Shown one piece after another: positions 1-15,869 of a stretch of 64,000 bases of DNA. This DNA comes from a phage. The number at the start of each line of letters is the position of its first letter. Positions within the stretch are counted from its first letter, which is position 1. The notes beneath the pieces were generated by a model that had not been told where the DNA came from, ran no database searches, and worked only from the letters and a program-made list of their open reading frames with translations. The DNA is taken from the NCBI GenBank assembly GCA_024449565.1, contig GCA_024449565.1_4810.1. One strand, 5' to 3'. A program made the translations under genes and the position numbers.

Positions 1-55
1 AAAAAAAATAAAATTAAATTAGATATATAATTTTAAATTAATTTATTTGAATTCC
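1..55. other. AT-rich tract preceding repeat element A (possible DNA-unwinding element)
   Basis: Positions 1-55 are almost entirely A/T; a similar AT-rich tract precedes the second copy of the element near 14900-14960. Confidence 0.35.
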
Positions 56-150
56 TATAAAGTATCGCGGCAACGCGTATCATCCGTATCATCCGTAAGA
101 TTCTTTTGAAAACAACTACTTACTTGATACGGATGATACGTCATTATACG
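56..150. repeat. Iteron-like repeat element A
   Basis: TATAAAGTATCGCGGCAACGCGTATCATCCGTATCATCCGTAAGA (tandem CGTATCATC) followed by inverted copy TACGGATGATACG and CGTCATTATACG; near-identical element at about 14962-15090. Confidence 0.6.
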
Positions 151-184
151 CGTGAAATCCTGCGGCAATCCATTGCCAGGCGAT

Positions 185-322
185 TCAGTGAATATTAAAA
201 AGCACTCCAGCAACTAAAACGCCAATCAGCATTGAGTCATAAACAGCCCATTTCCAAGAAAGCAAAGAGTTGCAATTAATATTTCGCACTTTAACATAAC
301 GTGACTGAATAATCTTTTGCAT
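185..322 (-). CDS. small hydrophobic protein (45 aa, below the ORF-track cutoff)
   Basis: ATG at 322 preceded by AAAGAGGAAG Shine-Dalgarno; translation MQKIIQSRYVKVRNINCNSLLSWKWAVYDSMLIGVLVAGVLFNIH with hydrophobic C-terminus. Confidence 0.35.
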   Translation of the reverse strand: MQKIIQSRYVKVRNINCNSLLSWKWAVYDSMLIGVLVAGVLFNIH

Positions 323-394
323 AACTTCCTCTTTAGTTCATATCAAATTAATAATTGCACAGTTTAAATTGCGCTTATTTACAACTATCTTAAT

Positions 395-1246: not shown

Positions 1247-1247
1247 A

Positions 1248-3623: not shown

Positions 3624-3728
3624 TGTTAACGCCACCTGACAGTGAAAGGGAATCAATCTATATTATAAATATTCATGTGTTTGTAAGCAAATGATATGTA
3701 TGGTGATCATAAATAGTTCATAAAATAT

Positions 3729-3757
3729 TTTGCTTTTGTATCATTTTGAGTTATATT
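3729..3757 (+). promoter_or_regulatory. sigma70-like promoter TTTGCT-17-TATATT
   Basis: Hexamers with 17-bp spacer about 30 nt upstream of the 3786 ATG. Confidence 0.4.
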
Positions 3758-3785
3758 TTAGTTAACCAAACGAAAGGAGATTGAA

Positions 3786-4202
3786 ATGAGCACAACAATT
3801 GTATTTGTCGTCCTACACAACGGCGAAGTCGTTAACGTATGCGAATATGAAGAACTGGCAAAGGCCACTGCTGCGAGATACGAAGGTGCTACTATTGACC
3901 CGTGGATTTTAGATGCGCGCAGCGTCTTGCAGGCGACTTTAGATGAGTGGTTGTTGGGTCGCAAGGTCTATCCAGTAGACAACATCGACTCAATTCAAGG
4001 CGAAACAGTATACTTTGAAGATGAATGCGTTCGCGGCATCGGCAAATTTATGGGATTGTGCCCATCTTCATCCAAAAATAAATTCTATCGTATTCAAGTT
4101 GAAGAAAACGATATGTTTGATAAAGTCACGCGCTCGATTGTTCCTGGCGGCGGAACTCCAATCTTTATGGCAGAATCAGACATCAAGGGGATTATCAAAT
4201 GA
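3786..4202 (+). CDS. hypothetical protein
   Basis: AAAGGAG SD 7 nt upstream of ATG; plus-strand gene inserted between minus-strand terL and portal. Confidence 0.5.
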   Translation: MSTTIVFVVLHNGEVVNVCEYEELAKATAARYEGATIDPWILDARSVLQATLDEWLLGRKVYPVDNIDSIQGETVYFEDECVRGIGKFMGLCPSSSKNKFYRIQVEENDMFDKVTRSIVPGGGTPIFMAESDIKGIIK

Positions 4203-4438
4203 GAACTTTAACCGAACTCGATGTTTTGAAAGACGTTGCAGCGGCGCTGGGCGTTGAAGTCTCTGAAAAGTCGACACTGGGTGCTCTGCGTCGTGATTTA
4301 CTCGAAGCCGTCGACCGCAACGATTTTGATCGTAAGTGTTTGCAAAAGAAGATTCGACAGGCAGTAAGGGCGGGTAAGCGATTCCGTGCCAGGTCGTTTG
4401 CCGCAAGAAAGCTCGACCTTCAGCACGGAATGCTTTAA
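4199..4438 (+). CDS. hypothetical protein
   Basis: ATGA overlap with upstream gene; basic C-terminus; a 9-bp stem (4381-4389 / 4423-4431) lies in its 3' end. Confidence 0.4.
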   Translation: MRTLTELDVLKDVAAALGVEVSEKSTLGALRRDLLEAVDRNDFDRKCLQKKIRQAVRAGKRFRARSFAARKLDLQHGML

Positions 4439-4441
4439 TTG

Positions 4442-5902
4442 TTAAAGGTTAGAGAAGAAGCCGGATGCTGCAACAATTGGTTTCATCAACGCCATGATTG
4501 CTGCGTCCGCTTTGTTAGGCGATTTGACTCCACGCTTTGCCATATCCTTTTTCGATTCAACTTTAAACTTACCAAGCACAGACGTGTCTTTGCGCGGCGC
4601 TGACATCTCAAAAAGAAATGTCTCAATTTCTTCCGCAGACCAAGCAGGAATCCCAAGTTCTGGAATGCCGTCTGTGTCGATGGAAATCAGCTCATCAGTC
4701 GGGTATACGGCCTGCCCTGTTGCATACTCATATGTCTTCCTGAATCGTTCGGCAATCTCAGTCCATTTTTGCGCTTTTATGTTTGCGAAATGGTCTTTAT
4801 TGAGTATTTCAACGTGTGGTAACTCAAGGAAGACGTCATCAGGATCATCAACAGCACCTTGCGCGTTGAACGCATTAAATTCGATTCTTGGGAATGTTGG
4901 ATTTTCATGGATTGCATACTCATTAAGCTCATCAAATTTTGAACCAGCAAATGCACCAACACCGATGGCGTCATAGGTAATTGATGCGCCGAATGTTAAT
5001 GCATCTTTCCAAACTCCGCTTGCGGACTTAAGCAATTCATCTTCCAGACCTTCCCATGTCTTGATGCCGCGCAATACGTTGCCCGTGACAAATGCTGTGG
5101 CGTTTAAGTCGTCGCCGTCGTCCGCCACGTCGAAGCCTATACGGTTAGACCCTGACAAGCTCCATCCCAGCGTAGGGTGTTTGTGGAGGTTTAGCGCGGC
5201 TTTGACGAATGCACGGTTGATTACAGATTTGTCGCCGCCAGTCTTCGGAACGCCGCCATAAACGTGCTCTGCCTTTTTTGGGTCGCGCTCGTACATGCCT
5301 GCGATAACGTCCAGCATTGTTTGCGACAAGAATGGATTATCTTGCCAGTTTATCTTTTTAACAATGGCATTCTTCGGCGGTCGCATAACAAAGTTCTGGT
5401 AGACAAAATCGGCCTCTTCATCAGGGTTAAAGATGATCCATATTTCTGACCCTTCTTTACGGATTGTTGGCTCAATAATGTCCCACTGTTCTTCAGTAAG
5501 CGCGTGCGCTTCTTCCAGCCAAAGTACGTCAACACCTTCCGTTGATTTGATTTCATCAACATTACGTGCGATACCATAAAATAGAAATTCAGATTTAGTT
5601 CTTTTATGTTCGATAGAGTTCTTTAATAAATTGAACTCATCTTTGAAATCAGAAATTTCTATTTTGTCTTTTAATAGAGTATATACAGATTCAGAAATCT
5701 TGTTCTGGAATTGTCGAACGCAAAGGAATTTTAATTTGAAGTTTGCCGCCAAATAAATAGCAAAACCAGCGGCATCATGCGATTTGGAAGATGCACGACC
5801 GCCGTATATTACTTTGTATCGCGCTTTCGTCTTCCAGACTTCTTTTAAAGCAGGATTCAACTGGTACATGACTTTCCAATTATGTGTTAGTATTTTATTC
5901 AT
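4442..5902 (-). CDS. terL: terminase large subunit
   Basis: Walker A GGRASSKS near N-terminus, ATPase plus nuclease two-domain length (486 aa), position upstream of portal. Confidence 0.9.
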   Translation of the reverse strand: MNKILTHNWKVMYQLNPALKEVWKTKARYKVIYGGRASSKSHDAAGFAIYLAANFKLKFLCVRQFQNKISESVYTLLKDKIEISDFKDEFNLLKNSIEHKRTKSEFLFYGIARNVDEIKSTEGVDVLWLEEAHALTEEQWDIIEPTIRKEGSEIWIIFNPDEEADFVYQNFVMRPPKNAIVKKINWQDNPFLSQTMLDVIAGMYERDPKKAEHVYGGVPKTGGDKSVINRAFVKAALNLHKHPTLGWSLSGSNRIGFDVADDGDDLNATAFVTGNVLRGIKTWEGLEDELLKSASGVWKDALTFGASITYDAIGVGAFAGSKFDELNEYAIHENPTFPRIEFNAFNAQGAVDDPDDVFLELPHVEILNKDHFANIKAQKWTEIAERFRKTYEYATGQAVYPTDELISIDTDGIPELGIPAWSAEEIETFLFEMSAPRKDTSVLGKFKVESKKDMAKRGVKSPNKADAAIMALMKPIVAASGFFSNL

Positions 5903-5910
5903 ATTATAGT

Positions 5911-5939
5911 TTGCTTGTACAATCTATATCAAGTAAAAT
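5911..5939 (+). promoter_or_regulatory. sigma70-like promoter TTGCTT-17-TAAAAT
   Basis: Hexamers with 17-bp spacer; about 40 nt upstream of an intrinsic terminator. Confidence 0.35.
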
Positions 5940-5978
5940 TATGATTCCAGCTTAGTAGTGGATAAAGGGTGATCTTTC

Positions 5979-6006
5979 GGCCAGATTCTTTCTGGCCATT
6001 TTTTTT
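5979..6006 (+). terminator. rho-independent terminator
   Basis: GGCCAG-ATTCTTT-CTGGCC hairpin followed by an 8-T run. Confidence 0.55.
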
Positions 6007-6026
6007 GATTAAAATTCACAAAAAGT

Positions 6027-6054
6027 TTGCCTTTCTGAAATTCTGCATTATAAT
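6027..6054 (+). promoter_or_regulatory. sigma70-like promoter TTGCCT-16-TATAAT
   Basis: Near-consensus hexamers about 27 nt upstream of the 6081 ATG. Confidence 0.5.
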
Positions 6055-6080
6055 CATATTAACTCAAAACCGGAGGTAAT

Positions 6081-6296
6081 ATGAAACTCATCGACCGCGC
6101 CATCAAAGCCATTGATAATCACTCCACAGCGATTGCTTTCGTAATGGGATTTTGTTTCACTGCTGCGTTTGGCGACGTTCACACATTCAAGTCTGTCATC
6201 TTGTGTTGGTCCATTTGGTCACTTATTTCTCTGGTTTTGATTCTTCCGATGACGTGGCTTGTTCTTACTTGTCTTGAATCTCAAGGTGAAGACTGA
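6081..6296 (+). CDS. small membrane protein, two predicted TM helices (holin-like topology)
   Basis: GGAGGT SD; two hydrophobic segments in 71 aa. Confidence 0.45.
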   Translation: MKLIDRAIKAIDNHSTAIAFVMGFCFTAAFGDVHTFKSVILCWSIWSLISLVLILPMTWLVLTCLESQGED

Positions 6297-6517
6297 TGAG
6301 ACTATCAATCAAAGAGCGGGCAAAGCGGCCCAAAAGGAGTGAGCCAAAGGCCAAATACACATGCGTTGGCGGACCGTTCGACGGTCAAGTGGTGTGGCTT
6401 TCAAAATCTAATCCATCGACGGTTGAGTTCAGCCTTCGTGGAATGCGCGGCAGATACCTGCTAAATAGAGAAACAAGTGGCAGCACATTTGTGGAGTGGA
6501 AAGAAAATGGCAAATGA
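6296..6517 (+). CDS. hypothetical protein
   Basis: Start overlaps upstream stop; AGGTGAAG SD. Confidence 0.4.
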   Translation: MRLSIKERAKRPKRSEPKAKYTCVGGPFDGQVVWLSKSNPSTVEFSLRGMRGRYLLNRETSGSTFVEWKENGK

Positions 6518-6740
6518 ATTAACCTTAACGGTGCCAAAAGAAGTGCTAGACAAGGCATATGCAGATTCTGTAAAAGAATTAGCCGTAGTGCTTGGAATTG
6601 AAAGTGAATTCAACGTTCAGCTTCAATTCCTAAAAGATACTCTTCAAATCAAAGAGAATAGAGAGGCTGGCGGCGGTGCGCCTTTAGCTTTGGCAATAAT
6701 CTATGCGGGATTAATTTTGAAGTCTGGAGATGAACTGTGA
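6507..6740 (+). CDS. hypothetical protein
   Basis: Start trimmed to ATG MANELTL with GGAGTGGA SD. Confidence 0.4.
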   Translation: MANELTLTVPKEVLDKAYADSVKELAVVLGIESEFNVQLQFLKDTLQIKENREAGGGAPLALAIIYAGLILKSGDEL

Positions 6741-6936
6741 ATCGTTGGTGCAGTTGGAAGTTGAAACGTCTTGCCTGGGCCAATGCCGCCAATTCTGCTG
6801 GTGTCATCACCGCTGGCGTTGGGTCGGTATGGGATGGCGAAGGCCGTTGGGACTCGCTGTGTGGCACGCGCCTATTCTTTCGCGTAAAATAATTATCGCC
6901 CTTCCCGAAATGGGAAGGGAATTTAAAGAGGTTATC

Positions 6937-7278
6937 ATGAACAACACTTTGTCACAACTGTTAATCTGGACTATCGCTGCTATCATCGGCACCGTTATTA
7001 TGATGTCAAGTGCAAAGGCTGAAACGGATATTTGCGGCAGACTTATTTCTGAAAACGGCGAAATTTATTATGGCAACTCAAAAGGTGATTATATATCGCC
7101 TGAAGTTTGCGCTCAGAAGAAAGCAGAAATGCAAAAGCAGTATCATGAAGATCAATCTATATCTCAAGCCGCGCTGATTGAATTAAGTATATCAGCCATC
7201 ATCTTTCTAATCGTTTTTATGCTCATTATTAAACCAAATAATGGCAGCCACCGTCATATTCCTCTCAAAAGAAATTAA
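6937..7278 (+). CDS. small membrane or secreted protein
   Basis: Start trimmed to ATG MNNTLSQ with AAAGAGG SD; N-terminal hydrophobic signal-like segment and C-terminal TM segment. Confidence 0.45.
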   Translation: MNNTLSQLLIWTIAAIIGTVIMMSSAKAETDICGRLISENGEIYYGNSKGDYISPEVCAQKKAEMQKQYHEDQSISQAALIELSISAIIFLIVFMLIIKPNNGSHRHIPLKRN

Positions 7279-7316
7279 GGTTATAATACGGTTGTCGACA
7301 AAACGAGGACCGTAAA

Positions 7317-9227
7317 ATGCCAAGGCTAATATTCAAAAACAACTTTGAGGTCGCGCTCGCTCAGCCAGCGACGACTTCAGACACCACAATCACAATCCGC
7401 TCAGGGTCGGGCTTTCCGACCTTGGGCGCAAACGAGCGTGTAGTGGCGACAGTCGTCGACGCTGCAACAGGCCTCCAATTCGAAATCATCACTGTAACAG
7501 CCGTGGTTGGAAACGTGCTAACCGTGCAGCGTGCACAGGAAGGGACTGCAGCGCGTGCATGGAGCGTCGGAGATTTTTTATCCATAAGGGTGACGGCTGC
7601 CATATTGACAAGCACAGTAAGGAATTTTGGAGAATTACCTTCTGGAATAAACTTAAATGCCCTTACTGGTTCTTGGTTCGGTCAATACCAGCAGTCTTCT
7701 AATTCTGCGGCTTCGCAAGTTCTGAATTATCCTGTAGCCCAATCAGGCAGCCTTGAGGTTATTTGCTCGGCAAACAACTCTGGTGACCAATCTTGCACGC
7801 AAATATACAGCACGAATCCTGACAACAAGCAGTACAAAAGAACTTATAATTCAGAAACAAGCACATGGTCTACTTGGGCTAAAATATATAACTCTTCCGA
7901 CGTGATTCCAGTCTCCAATGGAGGGACTGGTGTTTCAGACATAGGATCAATAAGAAGAGCAATATTGGTGCAAGGACTTGAATGTAATGATCAAACTGGT
8001 CCCCAATCATACAACAGCTATCGTTCACCAAATTCAGCATACACATGGAAAATAGATAACTCAGGACTTGTGCAAGTCATAAAGACTTCTGATGGTTCTG
8101 CAGTGCCAATACCTATTGAATCAGGAGGGACTGGTGGAATAACTGCTTATAGTGCAAGGGTTAATCTCTCTTTGGATAGGCTGCGCCAAGAAGGTGCTTA
8201 TACAGAACTGAATTCTGCGAACGGAAGATATAGATTTCTTGTAAATGATTCAGGAGATTGGGGAGGTTTTGATGGTTCCACAAACGGCTGGAAGCCATTG
8301 GCAATAGCGCAGGGAGGGACTGGATCAACCACGTTGGAAGGAGCAAGAACGAATCTGAAAATTGACAGGTTCTTGCAAGGTGATATTGATACAAAAATAT
8401 CAACGCCTGATTCGCAATACAACTTTTTCATCACTGACGCTGATTGGGGTCTTTATGATGTAACATCACTAAATAGAGTTGCACTCCCAATTGTCAGCGG
8501 CGGCACAGGCGGAGTAACTGCTGTTGAATCTTGCAAGTCTCTCGCAGCGATGCATTATAAATACCCAGCGCAAACATCATTTGGGCAGCAATACATGGAG
8601 ACTGGGGTTGGATATTACAGCACTGATCAGTCACCAAGTCCAGGTGGAAGCGGTTCTCCATATAACTATGCCGAGATACTTACTATATCTGAATTTGGTA
8701 ATGGAGCTAACTATTCTCAAATCGCATTTTCAGTGTTGACGGAACAACCGCCGCGATACAGACAAAGGTTTGACTCTAATCCAAGGTTGACTAATTGGCG
8801 AGATTTCCTTATTCGCGATTTGAATACCAGCGTAGACAGCAACGGATTCATAAAAATTGCTTCACCAATAGTCAAAATAAGATTTGATGGATCATTTGAG
8901 CTGAACAGCGAGTCAGAAGGCTGCACAGTGTCAAGAGAAGGAAAGGGGCACTATTTGATAAGCGGTTGCCTCGGATTAAATAGTGATGCCGCCTGGGGAG
9001 GCGTTAACGGCGGCTTTGAAATTCCAGTTGATGTGAATAAACAGCCTAGAATTTGGCTTGACTATAAAGTGAATGAAGATGGATCAGTTGACGTATTCAC
9101 ATATCACAGGGTGCACAATGATGCCCCAGTTTTTGCAAGGAATAACCTTGAAGGTTATGCAGACGGAGACCCAATAGACATACCAAAGGATGCATTTATC
9201 TCTGTGAGGGTGCAAATGCCAAAATAA
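7317..9227 (+). CDS. tail fiber protein (GGTG-repeat type)
   Basis: Four repeats of the (S/E/A/V)-GGTG-x-(S/T) motif (SNGGTGVSD, ESGGTGGIT, AQGGTGSTT, VSGGTGGVT) typical of phage tail fibers; GAGGA SD. Confidence 0.7.
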   Translation: MPRLIFKNNFEVALAQPATTSDTTITIRSGSGFPTLGANERVVATVVDAATGLQFEIITVTAVVGNVLTVQRAQEGTAARAWSVGDFLSIRVTAAILTSTVRNFGELPSGINLNALTGSWFGQYQQSSNSAASQVLNYPVAQSGSLEVICSANNSGDQSCTQIYSTNPDNKQYKRTYNSETSTWSTWAKIYNSSDVIPVSNGGTGVSDIGSIRRAILVQGLECNDQTGPQSYNSYRSPNSAYTWKIDNSGLVQVIKTSDGSAVPIPIESGGTGGITAYSARVNLSLDRLRQEGAYTELNSANGRYRFLVNDSGDWGGFDGSTNGWKPLAIAQGGTGSTTLEGARTNLKIDRFLQGDIDTKISTPDSQYNFFITDADWGLYDVTSLNRVALPIVSGGTGGVTAVESCKSLAAMHYKYPAQTSFGQQYMETGVGYYSTDQSPSPGGSGSPYNYAEILTISEFGNGANYSQIAFSVLTEQPPRYRQRFDSNPRLTNWRDFLIRDLNTSVDSNGFIKIASPIVKIRFDGSFELNSESEGCTVSREGKGHYLISGCLGLNSDAAWGGVNGGFEIPVDVNKQPRIWLDYKVNEDGSVDVFTYHRVHNDAPVFARNNLEGYADGDPIDIPKDAFISVRVQMPK

Positions 9228-9235
9228 TTCACTCA

Positions 9236-9260
9236 AGGCGCTGAAAAGCGCCTTTACTTT
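9236..9260 (+). terminator. putative intrinsic terminator
   Basis: AGGCGC-TGAAAA-GCGCCT hairpin followed by a T-rich tract after the tail fiber stop. Confidence 0.4.
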
Positions 9261-9310
9261 ATGCGCTATTAAGTTATACTCATTATACGTTAACAAGTGA
9301 GGTGAATGAA

Positions 9311-9592
9311 ATGAAATTTGAAGACATCGACAAGGCCCAAAAAGCAAAGGCGCTGCCTAAATATGTCATCTGTGGTATTGACCCTGAAGATAACCGCTTG
9401 GTTTTCTTAAAGCAAGTTGATAGCAATGAATCTGGCGACGCAGCTAATTGGTGCACCCCTTTGTTTGAGACAGCAGAAGAAGCCCAGAAGGTATTGTCAG
9501 AAAGCAATTTACCTAAACACTACAGTGTCGTTTCACAAGATGACATGGCAAAATTAGTGTTTAATTTTTATGGATATGGGAGAAGATTCTAA
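9311..9592 (+). CDS. hypothetical protein
   Basis: Start trimmed to ATG at 9311, 6 nt after GAGGTG SD. Confidence 0.45.
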   Translation: MKFEDIDKAQKAKALPKYVICGIDPEDNRLVFLKQVDSNESGDAANWCTPLFETAEEAQKVLSESNLPKHYSVVSQDDMAKLVFNFYGYGRRF

Positions 9593-9801
9593 TGGAAATT
9601 AAATTATTGTCTGATTTCGTAAAAAGTATTGAAGCCAAAGGCATGACAATCAAGGCTAAGAAAGGCGGCCTTGTTTGCATCGATAAGCAACAAAGTGATC
9701 AGAGTATATCTCTTGATGATATCAAGACAATGCAAAAGCTCAATAAGAAAGGTGATTTACACAAGTTCTTAACGGATATTGGAGCGGTGGACAATGGATA
9801 A
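9592..9801 (+). CDS. hypothetical protein
   Basis: Start overlaps upstream stop; GGGAGAAG SD. Confidence 0.45.
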   Translation: MEIKLLSDFVKSIEAKGMTIKAKKGGLVCIDKQQSDQSISLDDIKTMQKLNKKGDLHKFLTDIGAVDNG

Positions 9802-9892
9802 AGAGGCACGGCGCTTTGCATTTTGGGGCACGGTTTGTGTTGTCGCGCTGTTTGGAATTGCTTATGCAATTGTTTACGCTGCAGCGGCATAG
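9794..9892 (+). CDS. small membrane peptide (32 aa, below track cutoff)
   Basis: GGAGCGGTGG SD then ATG; MDKEARRFAFWGTVCVVALFGIAYAIVYAAAA with one TM segment; its stop abuts the next ATG. Confidence 0.3.
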   Translation: MDKEARRFAFWGTVCVVALFGIAYAIVYAAAA

Positions 9893-9894
9893 TT

Positions 9895-10290
9895 ATGATC
9901 ATCGATATTGAAAAGGCACTCAAGCGTGAATTGACGCCAGGTGCGACCCCTGGCGAAGAAGCCTACTACCGACCGAAAGCGCAGCGCACCAATGAGATTC
10001 CGGTTGTTAAGCGGACAGTGAATAAGAACGGTCAGAGGTCGCGACCGCGCTCTATCCGGTCCGGTGAAAGGCTGAAAACGATTCGCCAGTGTCTACAACG
10101 ACTCGAAATCATGGGTTGCCGCGCTTATATCGACCCTGATGGAAAGGTTCTGGTGAGAATTGGCAATAGTACACAACTACAAGACGGATTGCCCTGTGGC
10201 GAATCCAGACCCATAGCAAAGACCGACCGTGTGGCTACTGGCCGCGAGATTGAGGAAAGTTGGTTGGGTGCTTTCTTATTAAAATATTGA
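9895..10290 (+). CDS. hypothetical protein
   Basis: Start trimmed to in-frame ATG MIIDIEK adjacent to upstream stop. Confidence 0.4.
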   Translation: MIIDIEKALKRELTPGATPGEEAYYRPKAQRTNEIPVVKRTVNKNGQRSRPRSIRSGERLKTIRQCLQRLEIMGCRAYIDPDGKVLVRIGNSTQLQDGLPCGESRPIAKTDRVATGREIEESWLGAFLLKY

Positions 10291-10297
10291 GGATTAT

Positions 10298-10546
10298 ATG
10301 AATCAAAATGAATCAGTAGCGTTCTTACAATGGCTGGAAGGTGTTGTGGAGTATTACGCTCCAAAAGACCGTTTCATCTTTCAAGGCAAAAGTTATAAGC
10401 GCAAAGGACAGGCCCAGAAAGCTGCGCGCAAGTACTGGAAAGAAGTTTATTCAGAGTTCTTTCAGCAGATGGGCATCATCGGCTCGACCGTATCCGGCGA
10501 CCCAGCACAGTTGGTATCGATTGATGAATCCAATCGTCACAATTAA
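10298..10546 (+). CDS. hypothetical protein
   Basis: GAGGAT SD 5 nt upstream of ATG. Confidence 0.45.
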   Translation: MNQNESVAFLQWLEGVVEYYAPKDRFIFQGKSYKRKGQAQKAARKYWKEVYSEFFQQMGIIGSTVSGDPAQLVSIDESNRHN

Positions 10547-10621
10547 TAAATCGATTTGAATGCCGCGCTATGCGGCTTTATTATAGTTATTGTTAATCAC
10601 CCAAATATTGAAGGTAATGAT

Positions 10622-11002
10622 ATGTCAAATAAAAATGATTCTGTGAGTCACACATATACTAAAGGCAGCGGCATTGCTTTTGGTTCCAGCATCAAAATTG
10701 ACGCTCCACCTTGCTATTCTGATGGATTGGAAGTTGGCAACCGCGACTTAACATGGGTTTTACGTCGCCAATCCGATTTAGAAGAGAAGCTGGAAAATAT
10801 TGAGCGTTCTCTTGAAAGTCTTCGCGACCAGCTTTTTGGTTGTCCTGAAGATGAGTCAAAACCTGAATCATATGCAGCCAATCGCGGTTTGATTGATAAT
10901 ATGCTTGCTATTACCGCTCGATCAATTGGTAAAACTGTGTCCATTGAATCATTGATCAGCCAGATTGCGGATGGCTTTGGTGATGCCCATAAGAGCGAAT
11001 AG
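10622..11002 (+). CDS. hypothetical protein
   Basis: Start trimmed to ATG MSNKND with GAAGGTAA SD. Confidence 0.45.
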   Translation: MSNKNDSVSHTYTKGSGIAFGSSIKIDAPPCYSDGLEVGNRDLTWVLRRQSDLEEKLENIERSLESLRDQLFGCPEDESKPESYAANRGLIDNMLAITARSIGKTVSIESLISQIADGFGDAHKSE

Positions 11003-11032
11003 TGGGTGGATGTTGCTTTAACCGTGAATCGT

Positions 11033-11059
11033 GGGTCGCTTAGTGCGGCCCTTTATTTT
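11033..11059 (+). terminator. putative intrinsic terminator
   Basis: GGGTCGC-TTAGT-GCGGCCC hairpin followed by TTTATTTT. Confidence 0.45.
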
Positions 11060-11062
11060 GCC

Positions 11063-11134
11063 TGCCGCGCAGGAGTGTACTGCCGCGCAGGAGTGTACTG
11101 CCGCGCAGGAGTGTACTGCCGCGCAGGAGTGTAC
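11063..11134. repeat. perfect tandem repeat, 4 x 18 bp (TGCCGCGCAGGAGTGTAC)
   Basis: Four identical head-to-tail units read directly from the sequence; a partial fifth unit follows. Confidence 0.9.
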
Positions 11135-11755
11135 TGCAAATTTCCTGTGGGTACAAAATAGTACGGTACTGTCTAGGACTTTTTCTTTGAAAAGTTAGTG
11201 GACCAAATGTGTCGTATTTTGATTAGTGTACCGCAAATTCCATCAAGTAGCAAAACGCACCAAAAGACCCATGCCCTAAAAACCACACGAACGCAATAAT
11301 CAATCGCCGTTACAGTTTCCAGCGTTACAATTAGAAAGCGAATGATTCGATGCATAATAATATGAAGCATAATGATTCGAAAGCTAATGGTTGCGCGTAG
11401 GATGATATCGGGAGGGATTATTCGAGATGCGTGTAATTTCGCATGCGTACTATTTTCGGGCGAAGGGTCGGCATATTCTTCGTTTTAGCTCGGAACGAAG
11501 GGAAAGTTTTGCGCCTTTATAAAACAACGACTTACGCGACCCGCCTTAACGGTCCGATATAGGTGTCTATATAAAACAAGGACTTACGCGATGTTCTCCA
11601 TTTAACGTAATACCTGTTATGCGAACTAAGGCGCATCTCGACGAAGATTGTGCGACGACGAAGGGAAGGATAAAGGAGTTTTCGCGTAGGAGCTCATCGA
11701 GATAGGGACGAAGAAAAGCCGCGACTAAGCGCGGCCTATTAGTAACGGAAGGGTA

Positions 11756-12046
11756 TTATAAGGAGACGATTTTAAAGAAAGAGTAACGGCCTTCGCCTTC
11801 GGATACCGCGATATATTCGCCGCCGAACTCCGTAGCAAAATAAACCTTGCCTTCGATAGTAACGCGGAAGGTAGAAATATCTTCCTCTTCGAGTTCCGTA
11901 AATTCGCTAAAATCGATAGGACTATGAAGCTCCTCGATAGTCGCATCTACGTTAAAGAGATAAACGTTTTTAAGTTTTTCGCCAAATACGTTAGAGTTTT
12001 CGGAAGTTTCGACGCGAGCGGAACGGATAGCGGCCAAAGTAATCAT
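11756..12046 (-). CDS. small acidic protein, paralog family member 1
   Basis: AGGAGA SD; 96 aa, acidic; N-terminus MITLAAIRSARVE and NVDATIEE resemble those of the 12682 and 12154 genes. Confidence 0.5.
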   Translation of the reverse strand: MITLAAIRSARVETSENSNVFGEKLKNVYLFNVDATIEELHSPIDFSEFTELEEEDISTFRVTIEGKVYFATEFGGEYIAVSEGEGRYSFFKIVSL

Positions 12047-12153
12047 AATATTCTCCTAGTTAGTCGGGAGGGTAGCGACCTATTCGCTACCTCATCCCCT
12101 CTCGATATAAAACATTATAGTCTTAGTGTACGAAGAAGTAAAGCACTTTTTCG

Positions 12154-12456
12154 TTATTCTGCGATAAAATATTTATAAGCTTTATCGCCTTCTACGTCGA
12201 TATACTCGACGATAATTAACGCTTCGCCGCGCGGCGTAACCGTCTCGATAAGGGTAACGGCTTCGTCGTCGGTCTTCGCGAAGCGGATTGCGCTACGTTC
12301 GGCGTACTTAATATCATCGAAGGAAAGGCCGACGAAAGCGACCGCGCGGACCTTAATAATGGTAGATTCTAGTTCCGCGTTAACGGCAGCGATAAGAGAG
12401 CGAACGGTTAAACGGTCTTCGTCGTAAGTAAGGATAGAAGAGATTAAAGTAGTCAT
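12154..12456 (-). CDS. small acidic protein, paralog family member 2
   Basis: Start trimmed to ATG MTTLISS with GGGAG SD; same N-terminal pattern as neighbours. Confidence 0.45.
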   Translation of the reverse strand: MTTLISSILTYDEDRLTVRSLIAAVNAELESTIIKVRAVAFVGLSFDDIKYAERSAIRFAKTDDEAVTLIETVTPRGEALIIVEYIDVEGDKAYKYFIAE

Positions 12457-12681
12457 AATAAAACTCCCGATGCTAGTAGAAGGAAGGGCCATCACCCGTC
12501 TCGATACAAACAAGTATACGCGAGTGTACGAAGAAGTAAAGAAAAAAGATAAAATAATTTATCTCATTTTTATCGAAAAAGTGCTTTACTTTTTTCTACA
12601 CTATATTATAATGTACTCATATCGGGACGGGATGAGTTAACGAATAGGTCGTTAACGCCCGTCGAGAACTAGGAGTTTAAA

Positions 12682-12966
12682 ATGGCTATTCTTAACGTTT
12701 CTTCCATCCGTAACGCTATCGTCGAGAACTACGGCGTAAAACAAATTTTATCCGAAGTTTACGCCGCGAACGTAGACCAAACTATCGAGGCGGGTGGGGT
12801 AACGGTCGCCGAGGCTTTTAAACTTTACGCGGCGCTACCGGAATCGGACCGCGAAGCCTTCGAAGTAAACGTTAACGGATACTTCTTCGAAGCGGTCGAA
12901 ATCGGTAACATCTTACTCGTTATGGGCGAAGAAGAATTTGATACCTTCTCCCTCGTCGAAGCGTAA
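12682..12966 (+). CDS. small acidic protein, paralog family member 3
   Basis: AGGAG SD; MAILNVSSIRNAIVE and NVDQTIEA shared with the 11756 gene. Confidence 0.5.
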   Translation: MAILNVSSIRNAIVENYGVKQILSEVYAANVDQTIEAGGVTVAEAFKLYAALPESDREAFEVNVNGYFFEAVEIGNILLVMGEEEFDTFSLVEA

Positions 12967-13046
12967 GAGAGGATTTTTAGAGCGTCGTGCGCGGCGCTTT
13001 AATAAAATTCTTTCGCGCCTAGCGCCCTAACAAATAGGAGTTCATT

Positions 13047-13673
13047 ATGGTTAGCTTAAATCGTTTCTCGACTAGCGGCGACGTTATCGCAACTAAGACC
13101 GCCGACCTCGTTGCATTTTATAATGCAAATTCAGGTTCGAAGCCGATTAAAAAATTTGCGGACCGCCGGACCGCCGAGACTCGCGTAATCGCGCTAATCG
13201 AGTCCTTAAACGCGCTCGATGAGCCGTCCAACGAATCGCCAATCCCCGACGCGAAGCCGCGCGAGGAAGTGTCCAGCGATGTAAAAACGCATAAGGCGCG
13301 TGCGGTCGTTAAAAAGGCAGAGCCGACGCAGGAAGAACTCGACGCGATGAGCGATGAAGAGTATGAAGCCTTCGTTAAGAGCGGCTTAAACGATAGTGCA
13401 AATTGCGTAGTGCAAAATGGAACTCCTTCCCATCGCCGTTCGAATAGCGAAGGTATTGCAAAAAGTTGGGACAATAAGGAAGTGGCGCAAAAGCGTCTCA
13501 CCCGTAACGGCGTTATGGTCGAGGGTGTAGGAGAGTTCAAATCGGTCCGCGCAGCTTTCGCCGCGCTGGGATTACCGGATAGCAAGCACATTCGCTTCCG
13601 TATGAAGCTTAAGGAAGCTGGGCGCTTGAACTTCGAGTTCGGCAACAAGTCCTTTACCTTCCAGATTATCTAA
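13047..13673 (+). CDS. hypothetical protein
   Basis: AGGAG SD; 208 aa; contains two in-frame copies of the TAGTGCAAA(A)T motif. Confidence 0.5.
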   Translation: MVSLNRFSTSGDVIATKTADLVAFYNANSGSKPIKKFADRRTAETRVIALIESLNALDEPSNESPIPDAKPREEVSSDVKTHKARAVVKKAEPTQEELDAMSDEEYEAFVKSGLNDSANCVVQNGTPSHRRSNSEGIAKSWDNKEVAQKRLTRNGVMVEGVGEFKSVRAAFAALGLPDSKHIRFRMKLKEAGRLNFEFGNKSFTFQII

Positions 13674-13723
13674 TCGAATGGCGGCCCTTCGGGGTCGCTT
13701 TTCATAGTGCAAATTGGTGGCTT

Positions 13724-13987
13724 ATGAATACGCTTATTCTCATCGCTACGTTGTCCATCGGAAGTGGTCGCACCTTATCCCTTTATGACCATAGTGCAAA
13801 TTGCGCCTATCCTACGCGCGTTGCGGCGATAGTTAATAGTGCAAATAAGATGCTATTCGAGACTTGCTGGAGGGTCGATAACGAGAAAGGTCGGGTAGTC
13901 TTAGGCTATAGTGCAAATCTGCTGGTGGAGTCGTTCGATTGGACGGTTGAAGGTCGTAAATTGTTACGTAAAGTGACTAAAAGATGA
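13724..13987 (+). CDS. hypothetical protein (questionable; ORF spans three motif copies)
   Basis: ORF with GGTGG upstream, but three ATAGTGCAAAT copies fall in-frame inside it, so coding status is uncertain. Confidence 0.3.
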   Translation: MNTLILIATLSIGSGRTLSLYDHSANCAYPTRVAAIVNSANKMLFETCWRVDNEKGRVVLGYSANLLVESFDWTVEGRKLLRKVTKR

Positions 13988-14101
13988 CTTATAATAATAC
14001 ACTTTCTAACGCGTTTATGGTTACAACCTTCCCCGTCGTATTACCGATGGCCCTAGAAGTGGAGAAAATGTGTTCTAGGGCCGTTTTATAGTGCAAATTG
14101 G

Positions 14102-14575
14102 CTAGTGGCGGGAGAATTGCTCTCCTTCTTTGGCCGCCTCTCCAAAATCCTTGTAGAAATCATCCATGGAACGGCCCATTTTACTATTGCCATTTTCATC
14201 AATCATCGTGATGCCGTAGATGATATTCAGTTCACGAATGGCATTAAGTTTGGCTGATGCCGCGACTTCTGGATCACGCACAAGCTTCACTAGATTGTGG
14301 ATGGAACTCTTTACGCTCCACAATTCCTTCAATGGCATCTCTTCCATACGCTTTTTGTAGCGCATCTTGTAGTACGGATTGCGCTGAGTGCACAGGATTC
14401 GCTGGCCAGTGTAGTTATCGGTCGCAACCTCCATGCCAAATACTAGTGCAAAAGCTGCGCGCATGTCATGGCCTTGAATAACAAGGTCAATGAACTCATC
14501 GAATAATGCCTGATTATGCTCTGCAAATCGCGGGTCTTCAAAGTCTTCAGGCATTGCTACATAATCTTGACTCAT
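14102..14575 (-). CDS. hypothetical protein (possible HTH DNA-binding; small-terminase-like is speculative)
   Basis: Start trimmed to ATG MSQDYVA; the start codon lies inside a motif copy; helix-rich N-terminal segment FIDLVIQGHDMRAAFALVFG. Confidence 0.4.
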   Translation of the reverse strand: MSQDYVAMPEDFEDPRFAEHNQALFDEFIDLVIQGHDMRAAFALVFGMEVATDNYTGQRILCTQRNPYYKMRYKKRMEEMPLKELWSVKSSIHNLVKLVRDPEVAASAKLNAIRELNIIYGITMIDENGNSKMGRSMDDFYKDFGEAAKEGEQFSRH

Positions 14576-14802
14576 AGTGCAAATCCCATAGTGCAAATTA
14601 ATAGTGTGAATTATACAATGAATGAACATTATATTCAAGTGCAGATTGATGTTCAAATTGGCTGTAAACGTACATAAATCATAGTGCTAAATGAATAGCG
14701 GACCGTGATGCGTGGTGTACTGTTTGATACGTATAAAAGAAATCCATCCCTTTCGCCGCTTGCTATGCAAATCAATGACTTAGCCGCTGCTGGCTGGTTG
14801 AA

Positions 14803-15090
14803 GCGTATCATGACGTATCATCCGTATTGCCGCAAGTCTTTGTTTTTACTTATATCTTACGGATAATACGTATAAATATAAGTTCAGTATAAGTATGAGG
14901 ATGTAGAAAAAAATTAATTTAAATTAATTCAAAATGGAGTTAATTGTTTTTTTCAAAGTTGTATAAAGTATAGCGGCGACGCGTATCATCCGTATCATCC
15001 GTAAGATGTACCATTGAACCCAGTCGCGGCGCACCATAGAAGTGTGTGGAGTGAACTACGGATAGGTCCAAATCTTACGTCATTATACGT
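14803..15090. repeat. Iteron-like repeat region B (homolog of element A)
   Basis: GCGTATCATGACGTATCATCCGTATTGCCGCAAG, inverted TTACGGATAATACG, then TATAAAGTATAGCGGCGACGCGTATCATCCGTATCATCCGTAAGATG (near-identical to 56-100) and CGTCATTATACG; AT-rich tract at about 14897-14961. Confidence 0.6.
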
Positions 15091-15374
15091 TTAAATTCTA
15101 TGCGTAAGGTTAGCCAGCTAACTATATCTCCTTTTTAATTTCAAGCGGCAATCCCAGAGACGGCGCACCATGTACACAAACACACCACGGTACACGCTCC
15201 AATTCCTAGTGATTTCCTCTCCAATCCCACAACACCACAGTACAATAATCTTCCAAAACCGCACACATATTCAAGACGCAAAATTCACGTCACAATCCTC
15301 ACTACCAACGACACTCTAATAGATTTACACAAATCAATCGATTTATCCGATAATAAAGACTCACATTCCACAGG

Positions 15375-15399
15375 CAAATAAAAAGGGCCAATCGGCCCT
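15375..15399 (-). terminator. rho-independent terminator (minus strand)
   Basis: GGGCC-AATC-GGCCC hairpin with T-run on the minus strand, directly after the stop of the 15417 gene. Confidence 0.55.
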
Positions 15400-15416
15400 C
15401 TTAACATTAATCATAA

Positions 15417-15869
15417 TTAAAATATAAAATTCTTCACTCCAAGCCTTTTAAATTCTTTCCTTAACATCATATTAAACTTCTTCAATTTAGTTTTATTCAT
15501 CCTTAGCGGATTGTAGGTGAACACCTTTTCTATTACTTCCTCACTCATTTTTGAGCGCATATTAGTTGCGTAATAGTTCTTGAACGTATAAATAAGGTAA
15601 TTTGCTTCAAGCTTAAGTTCAATTACTTCCTCCGATTCATCAAGCTCAAGCAATCCTCTTTGCGTAAGAATATCTCTTAATATATCCTGACATTTCTTGC
15701 AATCACCTTTGCCTAAAAGCGAGTCGATGTAATCGCCGCTGACGCGCTCATCACCGAAGTATGTTGCGCGACCACAAAGGCTTTGCACTTCTCCTTCGTC
15801 AAAGTAGTGCGCGCGATGAGCCCACTTCGGTATGGCCCAACCAGCGGCGATAAGCTTATTACCCATCAC
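15417..15869 (-). CDS. hypothetical early protein
   Basis: Last gene of a tightly tiled minus-strand array; followed by terminator. Confidence 0.45.
   Translation of the reverse strand: MMGNKLIAAGWAIPKWAHRAHYFDEGEVQSLCGRATYFGDERVSGDYIDSLLGKGDCKKCQDILRDILTQRGLLELDESEEVIELKLEANYLIYTFKNYYATNMRSKMSEEVIEKVFTYNPLRMNKTKLKKFNMMLRKEFKRLGVKNFIF

What the first reader, a model, noticed from the sequence alone, without database searches (positions are those of the whole stretch)
11140..14100. Compositionally distinct island with three paralogous small acidic proteins in alternating orientation
This 3-kb block has CG-rich codon usage and uniformly strong AGGAG ribosome-binding sites, unlike flanking genes. 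It encodes three related ~95-aa acidic proteins (shared M-x-x-L ... NVD-x-TIE N-termini), two on the minus and one on the plus strand. The intergenic regions carry palindromes built around GTGTACGAAGAAGTAAAG and AAAAAGTGCTTTAC. Small acidic paralogs are reminiscent of DNA-mimic anti-restriction proteins, but that is speculation.
Basis: partly seen in the sequence, partly recalled or inferred. Interest (0 to 1): 0.75.

Follow-up and report, generated by a model that had tools for sequence, protein, structure and literature searches.

The report
CA/TG-purged early module in terminal repeat
About 2 kb of a coliphage's terminal repeat, carrying strong host-type promoters and small acidic proteins, has been almost stripped of the dinucleotide CA/TG, probably so that the first DNA to enter the cell escapes host nucleases, and this would explain a published puzzle about which restriction systems stop these phages.

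Summary
The window is a Wifcevirus-type E. coli myophage. The finding lies inside its ~3.75-kb direct terminal repeat (window 11182-14935).

The compositional anomaly is real, but G+C is normal. The signal is a 3- to 5-fold depletion of CA/TG across 11400-13700. CAG/CTG is hit hardest and GATC is also missing. CpG and TpA rise as the synonymous replacements. Proteins A, B and C almost lack His, Gln, Cys, Trp and internal Met.

The depletion is present in every relative checked, in every gene allele, and in a divergent metagenomic relative where it reaches about 10-fold. It is absent from Pbunavirus-type cousins. It is therefore maintained in place, not imported.

The "palindromes" are three copies of one sigma-70-type promoter. 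A and C are paralogues; B is not detectably related.

Published plating data show these phages resist five restriction systems and are sensitive only to EcoP1_I. EcoP1_I is the only one of the six with a cleavable site arrangement inside the repeat. Phage T5's first-step-transfer DNA behaves the same way.

Best reading: a T5-like pre-early, leading-end module kept free of nuclease target motifs. DNA mimicry by the acidic proteins is untested. Why the purge works at dinucleotide level is unresolved.

The parts
11182..14935 (.). Direct terminal repeat (DTR) of the phage genome. 11182 is the side of the right physical terminus and 14935 the side of the left terminus.
   Evidence: In phage WFC the first 3784 bp of the record equal the last 3784 bp exactly, and the inner end maps to window 11182. 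The junction sequence places the other end at 14935/14936. PhageTerm annotation in phage Mansfield gives 3673 bp. Korf 2019 reports about 3.7 kb.
11400..13700 (.). CA/TG-purged segment. The core is 11700-13200; depletion is weaker in non-coding 11400-11715 and fades across gene D.
   Evidence: Conserved in relatives and in the divergent locus L017.
11182..11715 (.). Non-coding right-terminal region with short repeats: AATGATTCGA, CTTTATAAAACAAsGACTTACGCGA x2, and leader-like remnants.
   Evidence: No convincing ORF. Repeats D8, D9 and I3. A similar repeat-rich non-coding stretch follows the island in L017.
11716..11737 (-). Terminator-like hairpin ending the A/B transcripts.
   Evidence: Annotated as a terminator in Mansfield and WFC.
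11756..12046 (-). Gene A: 96-aa acidic protein found only in this phage group (pI 4.4), paralogue of C. Two allele classes exist, 64% identical.
12047..12142 (-). Promoter P_A (TTTACT-17-TATAAT, 12142..12114) with a 5' leader hairpin and TAGGAG.
   Evidence: Leader fold -21.3 kcal/mol, z = -2.9. Alignment of the three cassettes.
12154..12456 (-). Gene B: 100-aa acidic protein found only in this phage group (pI 4.55), starting at the ATG.
   Evidence: A 27%-identical homologue is present in L017.
12457..12681 (.). Divergent promoter block. P_B is on the minus strand (12540..12513, TTTACT-16-TATACT). P_C is on the plus strand (12585..12612, TTTACT-16-TATAAT). It also holds the leaders and ribosome-binding sites.
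   Evidence: The block is 97% conserved across six genomes and drives C1, C2 or D directly. The core CTTTACTTCTTCGTACACT is identical in L017.
12682..12966 (+). Gene C: 94-aa acidic protein (pI 4.05), paralogue of A. It sits in a variable slot: other genomes carry an unrelated 104-aa acidic protein there, or nothing.
12967..13046 (+). C-D intergenic stem-loops (a partial terminator or processing site) followed by TAGGAG.
   Evidence: Fold -31.6 kcal/mol, z = -4.3.
13047..13673 (+). Gene D: 208 aa, basic, phrog_4730. It is conserved in Pbunavirus, Myosmarvirus and related phages. It is partly CA/TG-depleted, most strongly at its 5' end.
   Evidence: The same gradient is seen in L017.
13724..13987 (+). 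Gene E: 87 aa, basic, with a hydrophobic N-terminus. Its composition is nearly normal.
13394..14693 (+). Cluster of ten or more same-orientation copies of (A)TAGTGCAAA(T). It flanks and overlaps D(3'), E and the TerS start. It is confined to this half of the DTR.
   Evidence: Ten exact TAGTGCAAA copies, none elsewhere in the 64-kb window. Family D1. Seven to ten copies in the same orientation in eight genomes. Seven copies next to TerS in L017.
14102..14575 (-). Terminase small subunit gene. It lies inside the DTR and has normal composition.
   Evidence: Annotated in Mansfield by HHpred. phrog_4783. CA/TG count normal.

Best explanation
This is the pre-early, leading-end expression module of a Wifcevirus, carried in its ~3.75-kb direct terminal repeat. 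It works like the first-step-transfer (FST) region of phage T5.

SHOWN:
- Three near-identical host-type (sigma-70) promoters with A-rich upstream tracts are present, together with conserved 5' leaders and strong Shine-Dalgarno sites.
- They drive small acidic proteins A, B and C, which occur only in this phage group. C occupies a swappable slot. The conserved gene D follows.
- The DNA of these transcription units is under ongoing selection against CA/TG. CAG/CTG is hit hardest, and GATC and CCWGG are also missing.
- The selection is strong enough to have removed His, Gln, Cys, Trp and internal Met from the proteins.

INFERRED:
- Whichever end enters first, one copy of the module lies within the first 3.75 kb. 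I favour the right end, because the purge ends where the repeat cluster next to TerS begins.
- The module is exposed to host nucleases before the phage has established protection for the rest of its genome. Its templates are therefore kept free of short nuclease and methylase target motifs.
- One or more of A, B, C or D then provide a broad protective or host-takeover function.

Why the avoidance operates at the level of a whole dinucleotide, rather than of specific sites, is not explained.
For: - LOCATION IN THE REPEAT.
- PROMOTERS, LEADERS, RIBOSOME-BINDING SITES. The block is 97% conserved and drives different downstream genes. Its core is identical in a relative whose DNA similarity is otherwise lost.
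- SIZE OF THE PURGE.
- MAINTAINED BY SELECTION: every allele of A and C is depleted. Polymorphisms create CA/TG 37 times against 72 expected and destroy it 36 times against 13 expected, P = 5e-8. In the divergent relative L017 (proteins 27-51% identical) the depletion is about 10-fold, relative abundance 0.12 against 1.14.
- AROSE IN PLACE: gene D is shared with Pbunavirus-type phages, where the locus has normal composition.
- MOTIF-SPECIFIC LAYERS: GATC is 0 observed against 10.3 expected from the island's own dinucleotides (P = 3e-5), and 1 against 15.7 in the whole DTR. CAG/CTG is the most under-represented trinucleotide after dinucleotide correction.
[quoted passage not shown] I inferred the EcoCFT_II site as CACAG from the published site counts. 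In the Bas99 DTR there are 0 of 92 CACAG, 0 of 19 EcoRI, 0 of 4 EcoRV, 0 EcoCFT_I, 1 EcoKI, and 6 of 89 AGACC in both orientations. The pattern holds in eight genomes. Genome-wide strand bias does not explain it.
- THE SAME RULE IS PUBLISHED ELSEWHERE: for T5/BF23 (PMC10644984) and for a leading region in Autographiviridae (PMC12455610).
- T5 PARALLEL: the T5 terminal repeat is also a compositional island of the same magnitude (dinucleotide-signature distance, Karlin's delta*, 0.17-0.245 against 0.02-0.07), with a step at the FST boundary.
Against: - No expression or DNA-entry data exist for these phages. Two-step or slow entry is unknown for this contractile-tailed group.
- Only the EcoCFT_II versus EcoP1_I contrast is statistically informative (Fisher p = 0.013). 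The other four systems would have about one site or fewer in the repeat by chance.
- Removing one dinucleotide barely lowers the chance of carrying a random restriction motif. The island covers only about 10% fewer Type-I-like motifs and no fewer 6-bp palindromes. It still carries an EcoKI site and, in this window, an EcoRV site.
- The TerS half of the repeat is not CA/TG-depleted.
- A, B and C have no recognisable fold or family.
- There are no homologues of the T5 genes A1, A2 or dmp.
Confidence: 0.5

Rival explanations
1. Foreign origin. The block was acquired horizontally from a donor with a CA/TG-poor 'dialect', and its composition is a leftover rather than a function.
For: The compositional boundary is sharp. 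A, B and C have no homologues outside this phage group. The C slot is variable.
Against: - Gene D is inherited vertically: it has homologues in Pbunavirus, Myosmarvirus and others with normal composition. Yet it is partly depleted here, with a gradient towards the promoters.
- All alternative alleles are equally depleted.
- Polymorphisms are at equilibrium instead of drifting back.
- The purge is stronger, not weaker, in a relative whose synonymous sites are saturated.
- No donor is known.
Confidence: 0.08
2. Local mutational bias. A process tied to the terminal repeat (single-stranded exposure during end processing, repeat duplication at packaging, or very high transcription) converts CA/TG to CG or TA.
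For: - The losses of CA/TG are made up by the transition products CG and TA.
- The depletion is roughly centred on the divergent promoters and fades with distance.
- The region is terminal.
Against: - Two different transitions on both strands would be needed.
- The other half of the same repeat, including the part next to the left terminus, is normal.
- Coding DNA is more depleted than the adjacent non-coding DNA.
- Amino-acid content is reshaped, which needs non-synonymous change against protein constraint.
- GATC, which contains no CA/TG, is separately purged.
- CG and TA are the expected synonymous replacements under the genetic code.
Confidence: 0.07
3. Self-immunity or a single short-motif reader. 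The segment avoids one nuclease or nucleic-acid-modifying enzyme with a very short specificity around CA/TG (CAG/CTG). This could be a widespread host defence, or the phage's own early host-DNA-degrading activity. The leading DNA survives while CA/TG-rich DNA is attacked.
For: - The depletion is at dinucleotide level and affects all codon phases and both strands.
- It is near-total in L017, with 22 CA/TG in 1570 nt. Avoidance of a set of 5-7-bp sites does not require that.
- CAG/CTG is the epicentre.
- T5 FST DNA also has a private composition.
- From my own knowledge, not checked here: T5 degrades host DNA while only FST DNA is in the cell.
Against: - No nuclease-like gene is recognisable in the repeat.
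- No enzyme with CA/TG specificity is known to me.
- Conserved CA/TG remain in the promoters.
- The T5 signature is different: AG/GA-poor and GCGC-rich, with no CA/TG depletion.
Confidence: 0.2
4. A, B and C are DNA-mimic anti-restriction proteins of the Ocr/ArdA type, and the composition is incidental.
For: They are small and acidic: pI 4.0-4.6, net charge -7 to -12. They have strong early-type expression signals. Their alleles diverge fast and the slot is swappable. The phages resist Type I systems.
Against: - No match to any family, including known mimics.
- The models are low-confidence and beta-rich and have no structural neighbour.
- The only remote similarity is to beta-strand repeats of Ig-like domains.
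- From my own knowledge: Ocr-type mimics do not block Type II enzymes such as EcoRI or EcoRV, which these phages also resist.
Confidence: 0.15

Closest known systems
First-step-transfer (FST) pre-early region in the terminal repeats of T5-like phages (Tequintavirus: T5, BF23)
   Same: - It lies in a long direct terminal repeat.
- It has strong host-RNA-polymerase promoters and small proteins of unknown function.
- Restriction systems act only if an active site arrangement lies in the repeat (PMC10644984; the Wifcevirus data fit).
- A repeat-rich non-coding stretch adjoins the genes.
- The repeat is a compositional island of similar magnitude.
   Different: - An unrelated phage lineage: a contractile-tailed cousin of Pbunavirus.
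- The repeat is 3.75 kb instead of ~10 kb.
- There are no A1, A2 or dmp homologues.
- The terminase small subunit is inside the repeat.
- Two-step entry has not been shown.
- The compositional signature is different: a CA/TG purge here, AG/GA-poor and GCGC-rich in T5.
- Wifceviruses are sensitive to EcoP1_I, whereas Tequintaviruses are not.
Leading (first-injected) region of T7-like phages: Ocr at gene 0.3, and Murciavirus leading-region motif avoidance
   Same: - Early promoters and an anti-restriction function sit at the entering end.
- Absence of the recognition motif in the leading region decides sensitivity even when sites exist elsewhere in the genome (PMC12455610).
   Different: - No homology to Ocr.
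- The first 2 kb of T7 shows no special dinucleotide signature.
- Avoidance there is of specific sites, not of a dinucleotide.
Host-takeover module in the terminal redundancy of Bacillus phage SPO1 (from my own knowledge, not checked here)
   Same: Many small genes with strong early promoters and strong ribosome-binding sites are packed into a terminal repeat.
   Different: The host and lineage differ. No compositional purge is known to me. SPO1 was not examined here.
Classical restriction-site and GATC avoidance in enterobacterial phages
   Same: GATC, CCWGG and Type III motifs are under-represented beyond what composition predicts.
   Different: - It is confined to about 2-3.7 kb rather than genome-wide.
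- It extends to a whole dinucleotide.
- It is strong enough to change the amino-acid alphabet of the encoded proteins.

Membership tests
T5-type FST / pre-early terminal-repeat region | Located within a long direct terminal repeat | tested here: met
   3784-bp exact repeat in WFC, mapped to window 11182-14935. PhageTerm annotation. Korf 2019.
T5-type FST / pre-early terminal-repeat region | Enters the cell first, with a pause before the rest of the genome | not testable with these tools
   No entry data exist. The only support is the inference from where the purge ends and where the repeat cluster begins.
T5-type FST / pre-early terminal-repeat region | Genes expressed immediately by unmodified host RNA polymerase | tested here: inconclusive
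   Three 9-10 of 12 sigma-70 consensus matches with conserved leaders. There are no transcript data.
T5-type FST / pre-early terminal-repeat region | Restriction sensitivity depends on active sites inside the repeat, not elsewhere | tested here: met
   Correlative only. Published plating data were compared with site maps in eight genomes. Fisher p = 0.013 for CACAG against AGACC.
T5-type FST / pre-early terminal-repeat region | Homologues of T5 pre-early proteins (A1, A2, dmp) | tested here: not met
   There are no Pfam, PHROG or NCBIfam matches for A, B, C or E, and D matches only phrog_4730 of unknown function. The resemblance is therefore in how it works, not in ancestry.
DNA-mimic anti-restriction proteins (Ocr, ArdA and similar) | Small and strongly acidic | tested here: met
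   pI 4.0-4.6, net charge -7.5 to -12.5.
DNA-mimic anti-restriction proteins (Ocr, ArdA and similar) | Sequence membership of a known mimic family | tested here: not met
   No family hit. A profile search of 1.8 billion proteins found only close relatives and weak Ig-like repeat hits.
DNA-mimic anti-restriction proteins (Ocr, ArdA and similar) | Fold that displays carboxylates in a DNA-like array | tested here: inconclusive
   AlphaFold pLDDT is 61 and 62, too low to judge. Foldseek found nothing with E below 0.001.
Horizontally acquired compositional island | Atypical composition relative to the host genome | tested here: met
   Dinucleotide-signature distance (delta*) is 0.20-0.22 against a median of 0.045.
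Horizontally acquired compositional island | Patchy presence among close relatives, or homologues in a plausible donor | tested here: not met
   The island is present in all 29 matching phage records and in the divergent relative L017. Only gene C varies. No donor was found.
Restriction-motif avoidance | Specific known target motifs are rarer than composition predicts | tested here: met
   GATC 0 against 10.3 expected. CAG/CTG ratio 0.29 after dinucleotide correction. CACAG 0-1 against about 5 expected, and CCWGG 0-2 against about 4 expected.
Restriction-motif avoidance | The purge meaningfully lowers exposure to arbitrary restriction specificities | tested here: not met
   Only about 10% fewer Type-I-like motifs and no fewer 6-bp palindromes than in control windows.

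The most novel reading that the evidence does not exclude
The leading DNA of long-terminal-repeat phages is written in a private 'stealth dialect'. In Wifcevirus-type phages the coding sequence is kept almost free of one dinucleotide (CA/TG). As a result its proteins use a 15-letter amino-acid alphabet. The cause would be something in the infected cell that reads a motif as short as CA/TG or CAG: either an unrecognised host defence or the phage's own host-DNA-destroying activity. T5 would have solved the same problem with a different dialect (AG/GA-poor, GCGC-rich). The same-orientation TAGTGCAAA cluster would mark where exposure of the leading DNA stops, or where packaging starts.
Probability: 0.25. 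Interest if true: 0.9.

Novelty: new variant of a known kind. Interest (0 to 1): 0.8.

Why it matters
- It offers a concrete, testable explanation for a puzzle stated in the BASEL phage collection paper. Wifceviruses resist nearly all tested restriction systems without any known protection, yet are killed by EcoP1_I and not by EcoCFT_II, although both have about 90 sites in the genome.
- It extends the T5 rule ("only sites in the terminal repeat count") to an unrelated phage lineage. The T5 protective factor is still unidentified. Here the candidate list is short: A, B, the variable C, D and E.
- A coding region kept nearly free of one dinucleotide across deep divergence is, as far as I know, undescribed in phages. 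It is strong enough to remove five amino acids from its proteins. It points to a selective agent that reads very short motifs.
- For phage therapy and phage engineering, it predicts that host range against restriction systems can be read from, and edited in, a 2-4 kb terminal segment.

Tried and rejected
- G+C ISLAND: rejected. G+C is normal.
- CODON OPTIMISATION: rejected. The island avoids CTG, which (from my own knowledge) is the preferred E. coli Leu codon, and the depletion is equal in all three codon phases, including across codon boundaries.
- RNA-LEVEL TARGET (for example MazF cutting ACA, or RelE): rejected. Both CA and UG are depleted on the sense strand, non-coding DNA is also depleted, and UAG is enriched.
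- DNA HYPERMODIFICATION: no support from gene content. The thymidylate synthase is ThyX, and the 'kinase' matches a PNKP phosphatase domain.
- GENERIC REDUCTION OF RESTRICTION-MOTIF SPACE: weak, only about 10%.
- GENOME-WIDE STRAND BIAS OF CACAG as the reason for EcoCFT_II resistance: rejected. The split is 51/41 with 47 orientation switches.
- Rfam scan of 10500-15500: nothing.
- Pfam, PHROG and NCBIfam on A-E: no function.
- Sequence search of D against solved structures: nothing.
- AlphaFold models of A and B: too poor to use. Foldseek search of the A model against the PDB: no match.
- Synthetic vB_Eco4M-7 paper: no information on genome termini.
- T7 leading 2 kb: no comparable signature.
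- Pbunavirus, Myosmarvirus and Luteibacter-phage loci around the D homologue: no depletion.


Full report
WHAT THE WINDOW IS

The 2961-base finding matches 29 phage records at 90-96% identity. All are Wifcevirus myophages of E. coli and Shigella, such as WFC, Mansfield and BASEL Bas98-101. In Mansfield the region is annotated as part of a direct terminal repeat predicted by PhageTerm. Korf et al. report a terminal repeat of about 3.7 kb for WFC and WFH (PMC6563267). In the WFC record the first 3784 bases equal the last 3784 exactly. The inner end of that repeat maps to window 11182, and the junction sequence puts the other end at 14935/14936. The finding therefore lies inside the terminal repeat, next to the right physical end of the genome.

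CHECKING THE OBSERVATION

G+C is unremarkable. CpG observed/expected is about 2 in 11501-13500, against about 1.1 elsewhere, so "CG-rich" is correct. The full dinucleotide table shows what drives this:

- CA/TG falls to a relative abundance of 0.38, against 1.18 in the rest of the window.
- CG rises to 1.96 and TA to 1.15.
- Every other dinucleotide is essentially unchanged.

Counts of CA+TG per 100 nt are 0-6 across 11401-13200, against a window mean of 14.1 (sd 3.3). They rise across gene D and are normal from about 13700. All eight CA/TG-containing trinucleotides are depleted. CAG/CTG is the lowest, with 4 observed against 59 expected from the rest of the window.

I re-encoded each protein with the phage's own codon usage to get expected CA+TG counts:

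| Gene | Observed | Expected | z |
|---|---|---|---|
| A | 7 | 30.5 | -6.1 |
| B | 6 | 35.9 | -7.3 |
| C | 8 | 34.6 | -7.1 |
| D | 49 | 77.0 | -5.0 |
| E | 27 | 35.5 | -2.4 |
| TerS | 77 | 65.2 | +2.6 |

The deficit is equal for CA and TG on the sense strand. It is present within codons and across codon boundaries. The constraint therefore acts on double-stranded DNA, not on codons or tRNAs. CG and TA are the products of the synonymous transitions that remove CA/TG (NCA to NCG, YTG to YTA, NNT|G to NNC|G, NNC|A to NNT|A). This explains their rise without any separate preference. The amino acids whose codons must contain CA or TG (His, Gln, Cys, Trp, Met) make up 2, 1 and 4 residues of A, B and C. 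In other genes of the phage they make up 10.6% of residues.

GENES AND SIGNALS

- A and C are paralogues (32% identity, E = 2e-7). B aligns with neither. All three are acidic.
P_A and P_B are on the minus strand and share 19 identical bases. P_C is on the plus strand. Each scores 9-10 of 12 against the sigma-70 consensus.
- The A and C cassettes are inverted duplicates that include the promoter, the leader hairpin and the ribosome-binding site. The two leader stems differ by paired changes.
- The P_B/P_C block is 97% conserved across six genomes. It drives the 94-aa C, an unrelated 104-aa acidic protein, or gene D directly. C is therefore a swappable slot behind a fixed expression platform.
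- A exists in two allele classes that are 64% identical.

IS THE DEPLETION IMPORTED OR MAINTAINED?

Four lines of evidence point to maintenance in place.

1. Gene D has homologues in more than 300 Pbunavirus, Myosmarvirus and related genomes. The loci there have normal CA/TG. D has therefore been reshaped within this lineage.
2. Every allele of A and C, and every genome checked, is equally depleted.
3. Across six genomes I counted 215 polymorphisms in the A-B region. They create CA/TG 37 times against 72 expected, and destroy it 36 times against 13 expected (P = 5e-8). That is a balance, not a drift back to normal. Assigning the ancestral state by majority rule is rough, but errors of that kind would not produce this result from neutral decay.
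4. This is the decisive line. A profile search of 1.8 billion proteins found one divergent A homologue. Its metagenomic contig (L017) encodes TerS, D, E, A and B homologues at 51, 50, 37, 33 and 27% identity, with DNA similarity otherwise lost.
   - CA/TG there is down to 0.12 against 1.14, with only 22 occurrences in 1570 nt.
   - The same gradient runs into the D homologue.
   - The promoter core CTTTACTTCTTCGTACACT is identical.

Horizontal origin and local mutational bias are therefore poor explanations. Mutational bias also fails because the other half of the same repeat is normal, coding DNA is more depleted than adjacent non-coding DNA, and GATC is purged independently.

FURTHER LAYERS OF MOTIF LOSS

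I used the island's own dinucleotide frequencies as the null model.

- GATC is the most under-represented tetranucleotide. It is 0 observed against 10.3 expected in the island, and 1 against 15.7 in the whole repeat.
- CAG/CTG is the most under-represented trinucleotide. The ratio is 0.29 in the core and 0.57 in the whole repeat (P = 2e-4), against 1.09 in the rest of the genome.
- CCWGG is absent from the repeat in this window, which has 66 sites overall.
- L017 has no GATC for 3.8 kb around its island.

LINK TO PUBLISHED PHENOTYPES

[quoted passage not shown] The exception is EcoP1_I. They note this is odd, because EcoCFT_II has a similar number of sites (PMC11990801).

The EcoCFT_II site is shown only in a figure of the earlier BASEL paper. 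I recovered it from the published site counts. CACAG is the only pentamer with 92 sites in Bas99 and 115 in Bas97, and the same method reproduces the AGACC and GAATTC counts exactly.

Sites in the Bas99 terminal repeat, against the whole genome:

| System (site) | In the repeat | In the genome |
|---|---|---|
| EcoCFT_II (CACAG) | 0 | 92 |
| EcoRI | 0 | 19 |
| EcoRV | 0 | 4 |
| EcoCFT_I (GAG-N7-GTCA, inferred from its near-identity to EcoAI) | 0 | 3 |
| EcoKI | 1 | 5 |
| EcoP1_I (AGACC) | 6, in both orientations | 89 |

The same holds in eight genomes. EcoP15I sites, where present, are all in one orientation. CACAG sites genome-wide are in mixed orientation, so strand bias does not explain the resistance.

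The one system with a cleavable arrangement inside the repeat is therefore the one that restricts these phages. [quoted passage not shown] It also holds for the leading region of Murciavirus (PMC12455610). The statistics are modest, because only the CACAG/AGACC contrast is informative (Fisher p = 0.013).

COMPARISON WITH T5

The T5 terminal repeat (FST DNA) turns out to be a compositional island of the same size of effect. The dinucleotide-signature distance (Karlin's delta*, the mean absolute difference in relative abundance) is 0.17-0.245 for 2-kb windows up to about 9.5 kb. Beyond that it is 0.02-0.07. Its content differs from the Wifcevirus island: AG/CT and GA/TC are depleted, GCGC is 9.6-fold enriched, and CA/TG is normal. 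The first 2 kb of T7 is not distinct.

HOW IT MOST LIKELY WORKS

Shown:
- The module lies in the terminal repeat.
- It has three conserved host-type promoters, with leaders and strong ribosome-binding sites.
- It carries small acidic proteins found only in this phage group, plus a swappable slot.
- It is under ongoing selection against CA/TG, CAG/CTG and GATC.
- The restriction phenotypes track the sites in the repeat.

Inferred:
- The module is the first part of the genome to be exposed and expressed.
- Its products establish protection or host takeover for the rest of the genome.
- Its own DNA must survive unaided, hence the motif purge.
- The purge is strongest over the promoters and A/B/C, weaker in D, and weaker in the non-coding end. 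This fits selection for an intact template for the protective genes.
- The purge ends where a cluster of same-orientation TAGTGCAAA repeats begins. That cluster lies beside TerS near the left end. If the repeats are the packaging start, the right end is packaged last and ejected first. The purged segment would then be the leading 2.5 kb.

Unexplained:
- Why avoidance operates on a whole dinucleotide. Removing CA/TG lowers exposure to arbitrary restriction motifs by only about 10%.
- It does remove CAG. As far as I recall, CAG is shared by the enterobacterial Type III sites CAGCAG (EcoP15I) and CAGAG (StyLTI), as well as by CACAG.
- A reader of a very short motif, from the host or from the phage itself, remains a live alternative.

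WHAT THE PROTEINS ARE

No family, solved structure or confident model was obtained. The only remote signal is a weak, repeat-summed similarity between the C-terminal half of A/C and beta-strands of Big_13 Ig-like repeats. This agrees with the beta-rich models, but says nothing about function. DNA mimicry is neither supported nor excluded.

VERDICT

The region works like a T5 FST module but is not homologous to it. I file it as a new variant of a known kind. It contains a feature I cannot match to anything published: near-total loss of one dinucleotide from coding DNA, conserved across deep divergence.

Noticed in passing
window 13394-14693 (also L001, L002, L008-L010, L014, L015; L017 4211-5165): The 9-mer TAGTGCAAA, usually within ATAGTGCAAAT, occurs 10 times in the window. 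All copies have the same orientation, all lie in the TerS-side half of the terminal repeat, and there are none elsewhere in 64 kb. Seven to ten copies are conserved in eight genomes. The exact 9-mer also occurs in the divergent relative L017. The cluster could be a terminase recognition (pac-like) site or an injection-stop-like element.
   Followed up: partly
window 13391-13419 (gene D), 13789-13848 and 13907-13917 (gene E): Inside D and E the repeat is always read in the same frame, as x-Ser-Ala-Asn (for example DSANCVVQNG and HSANC). In RCIP0319 and vB_Eco4M-7 the two copies in D are replaced by an unrelated peptide (DTPVGADKIA). A DNA element therefore seems to be imposed on the coding sequence.
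   Followed up: partly
window 11062-11133: A perfect 4-copy tandem array of an 18-mer (CTGCCGCGCAGGAGTGTA) lies about 50 bp outside the inner boundary of the terminal repeat. Relatives have one copy or none.
   Followed up: partly
window 13921-13928: One of only three E. coli Chi sites (GCTGGTGG) in the window lies in gene E, directly after a TAGTGCAAAT copy. Its orientation would act on RecBCD entering from the left genome end, and so shield the island genes. This could be chance (about 0.1 expected).
   Followed up: no
L011 (phage T5, AY543070) 1-10219: The T5 terminal repeat (FST DNA) has its own dinucleotide signature, with a sharp step at the repeat boundary: delta* 0.17-0.245 against 0.02-0.07. 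AG/CT is 0.79 against 1.10, GA/TC 0.76 against 1.0, CG 1.34 against 0.79, and GCGC is 9.6-fold enriched. I do not know whether this has been described.
   Followed up: partly
window 29000-31000: This is the second-largest compositional outlier in the window: delta* 0.12-0.13, AT skew 0.35, GpC observed/expected 2.19. It covers an ORF of 279 aa (29904-30743, plus strand) with no Pfam match.
   Followed up: no
window 11263-11715 and L017 7170-7500: The non-coding stretch between the island and the right genome end is full of short repeats (AATGATTCGA, CGAATTATTCG-like units, a 25-mer present twice). It also holds degenerate copies of the leader motif ATATCGRGASGGG. This suggests decayed cassettes or end-processing signals.
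   Followed up: no
window 12143 and 11404: The island still carries one EcoKI site, which overlaps promoter P_A, and one EcoRV site in this particular phage. None of the eight relatives checked has the EcoRV site, and only three of them carry an EcoKI site.
   Followed up: yes
window 12470-12640 (+): A 56-aa ORF annotated in some BASEL records (for example Bas98_0101) lies entirely within the divergent promoter block. It is probably not a gene.
   Followed up: no
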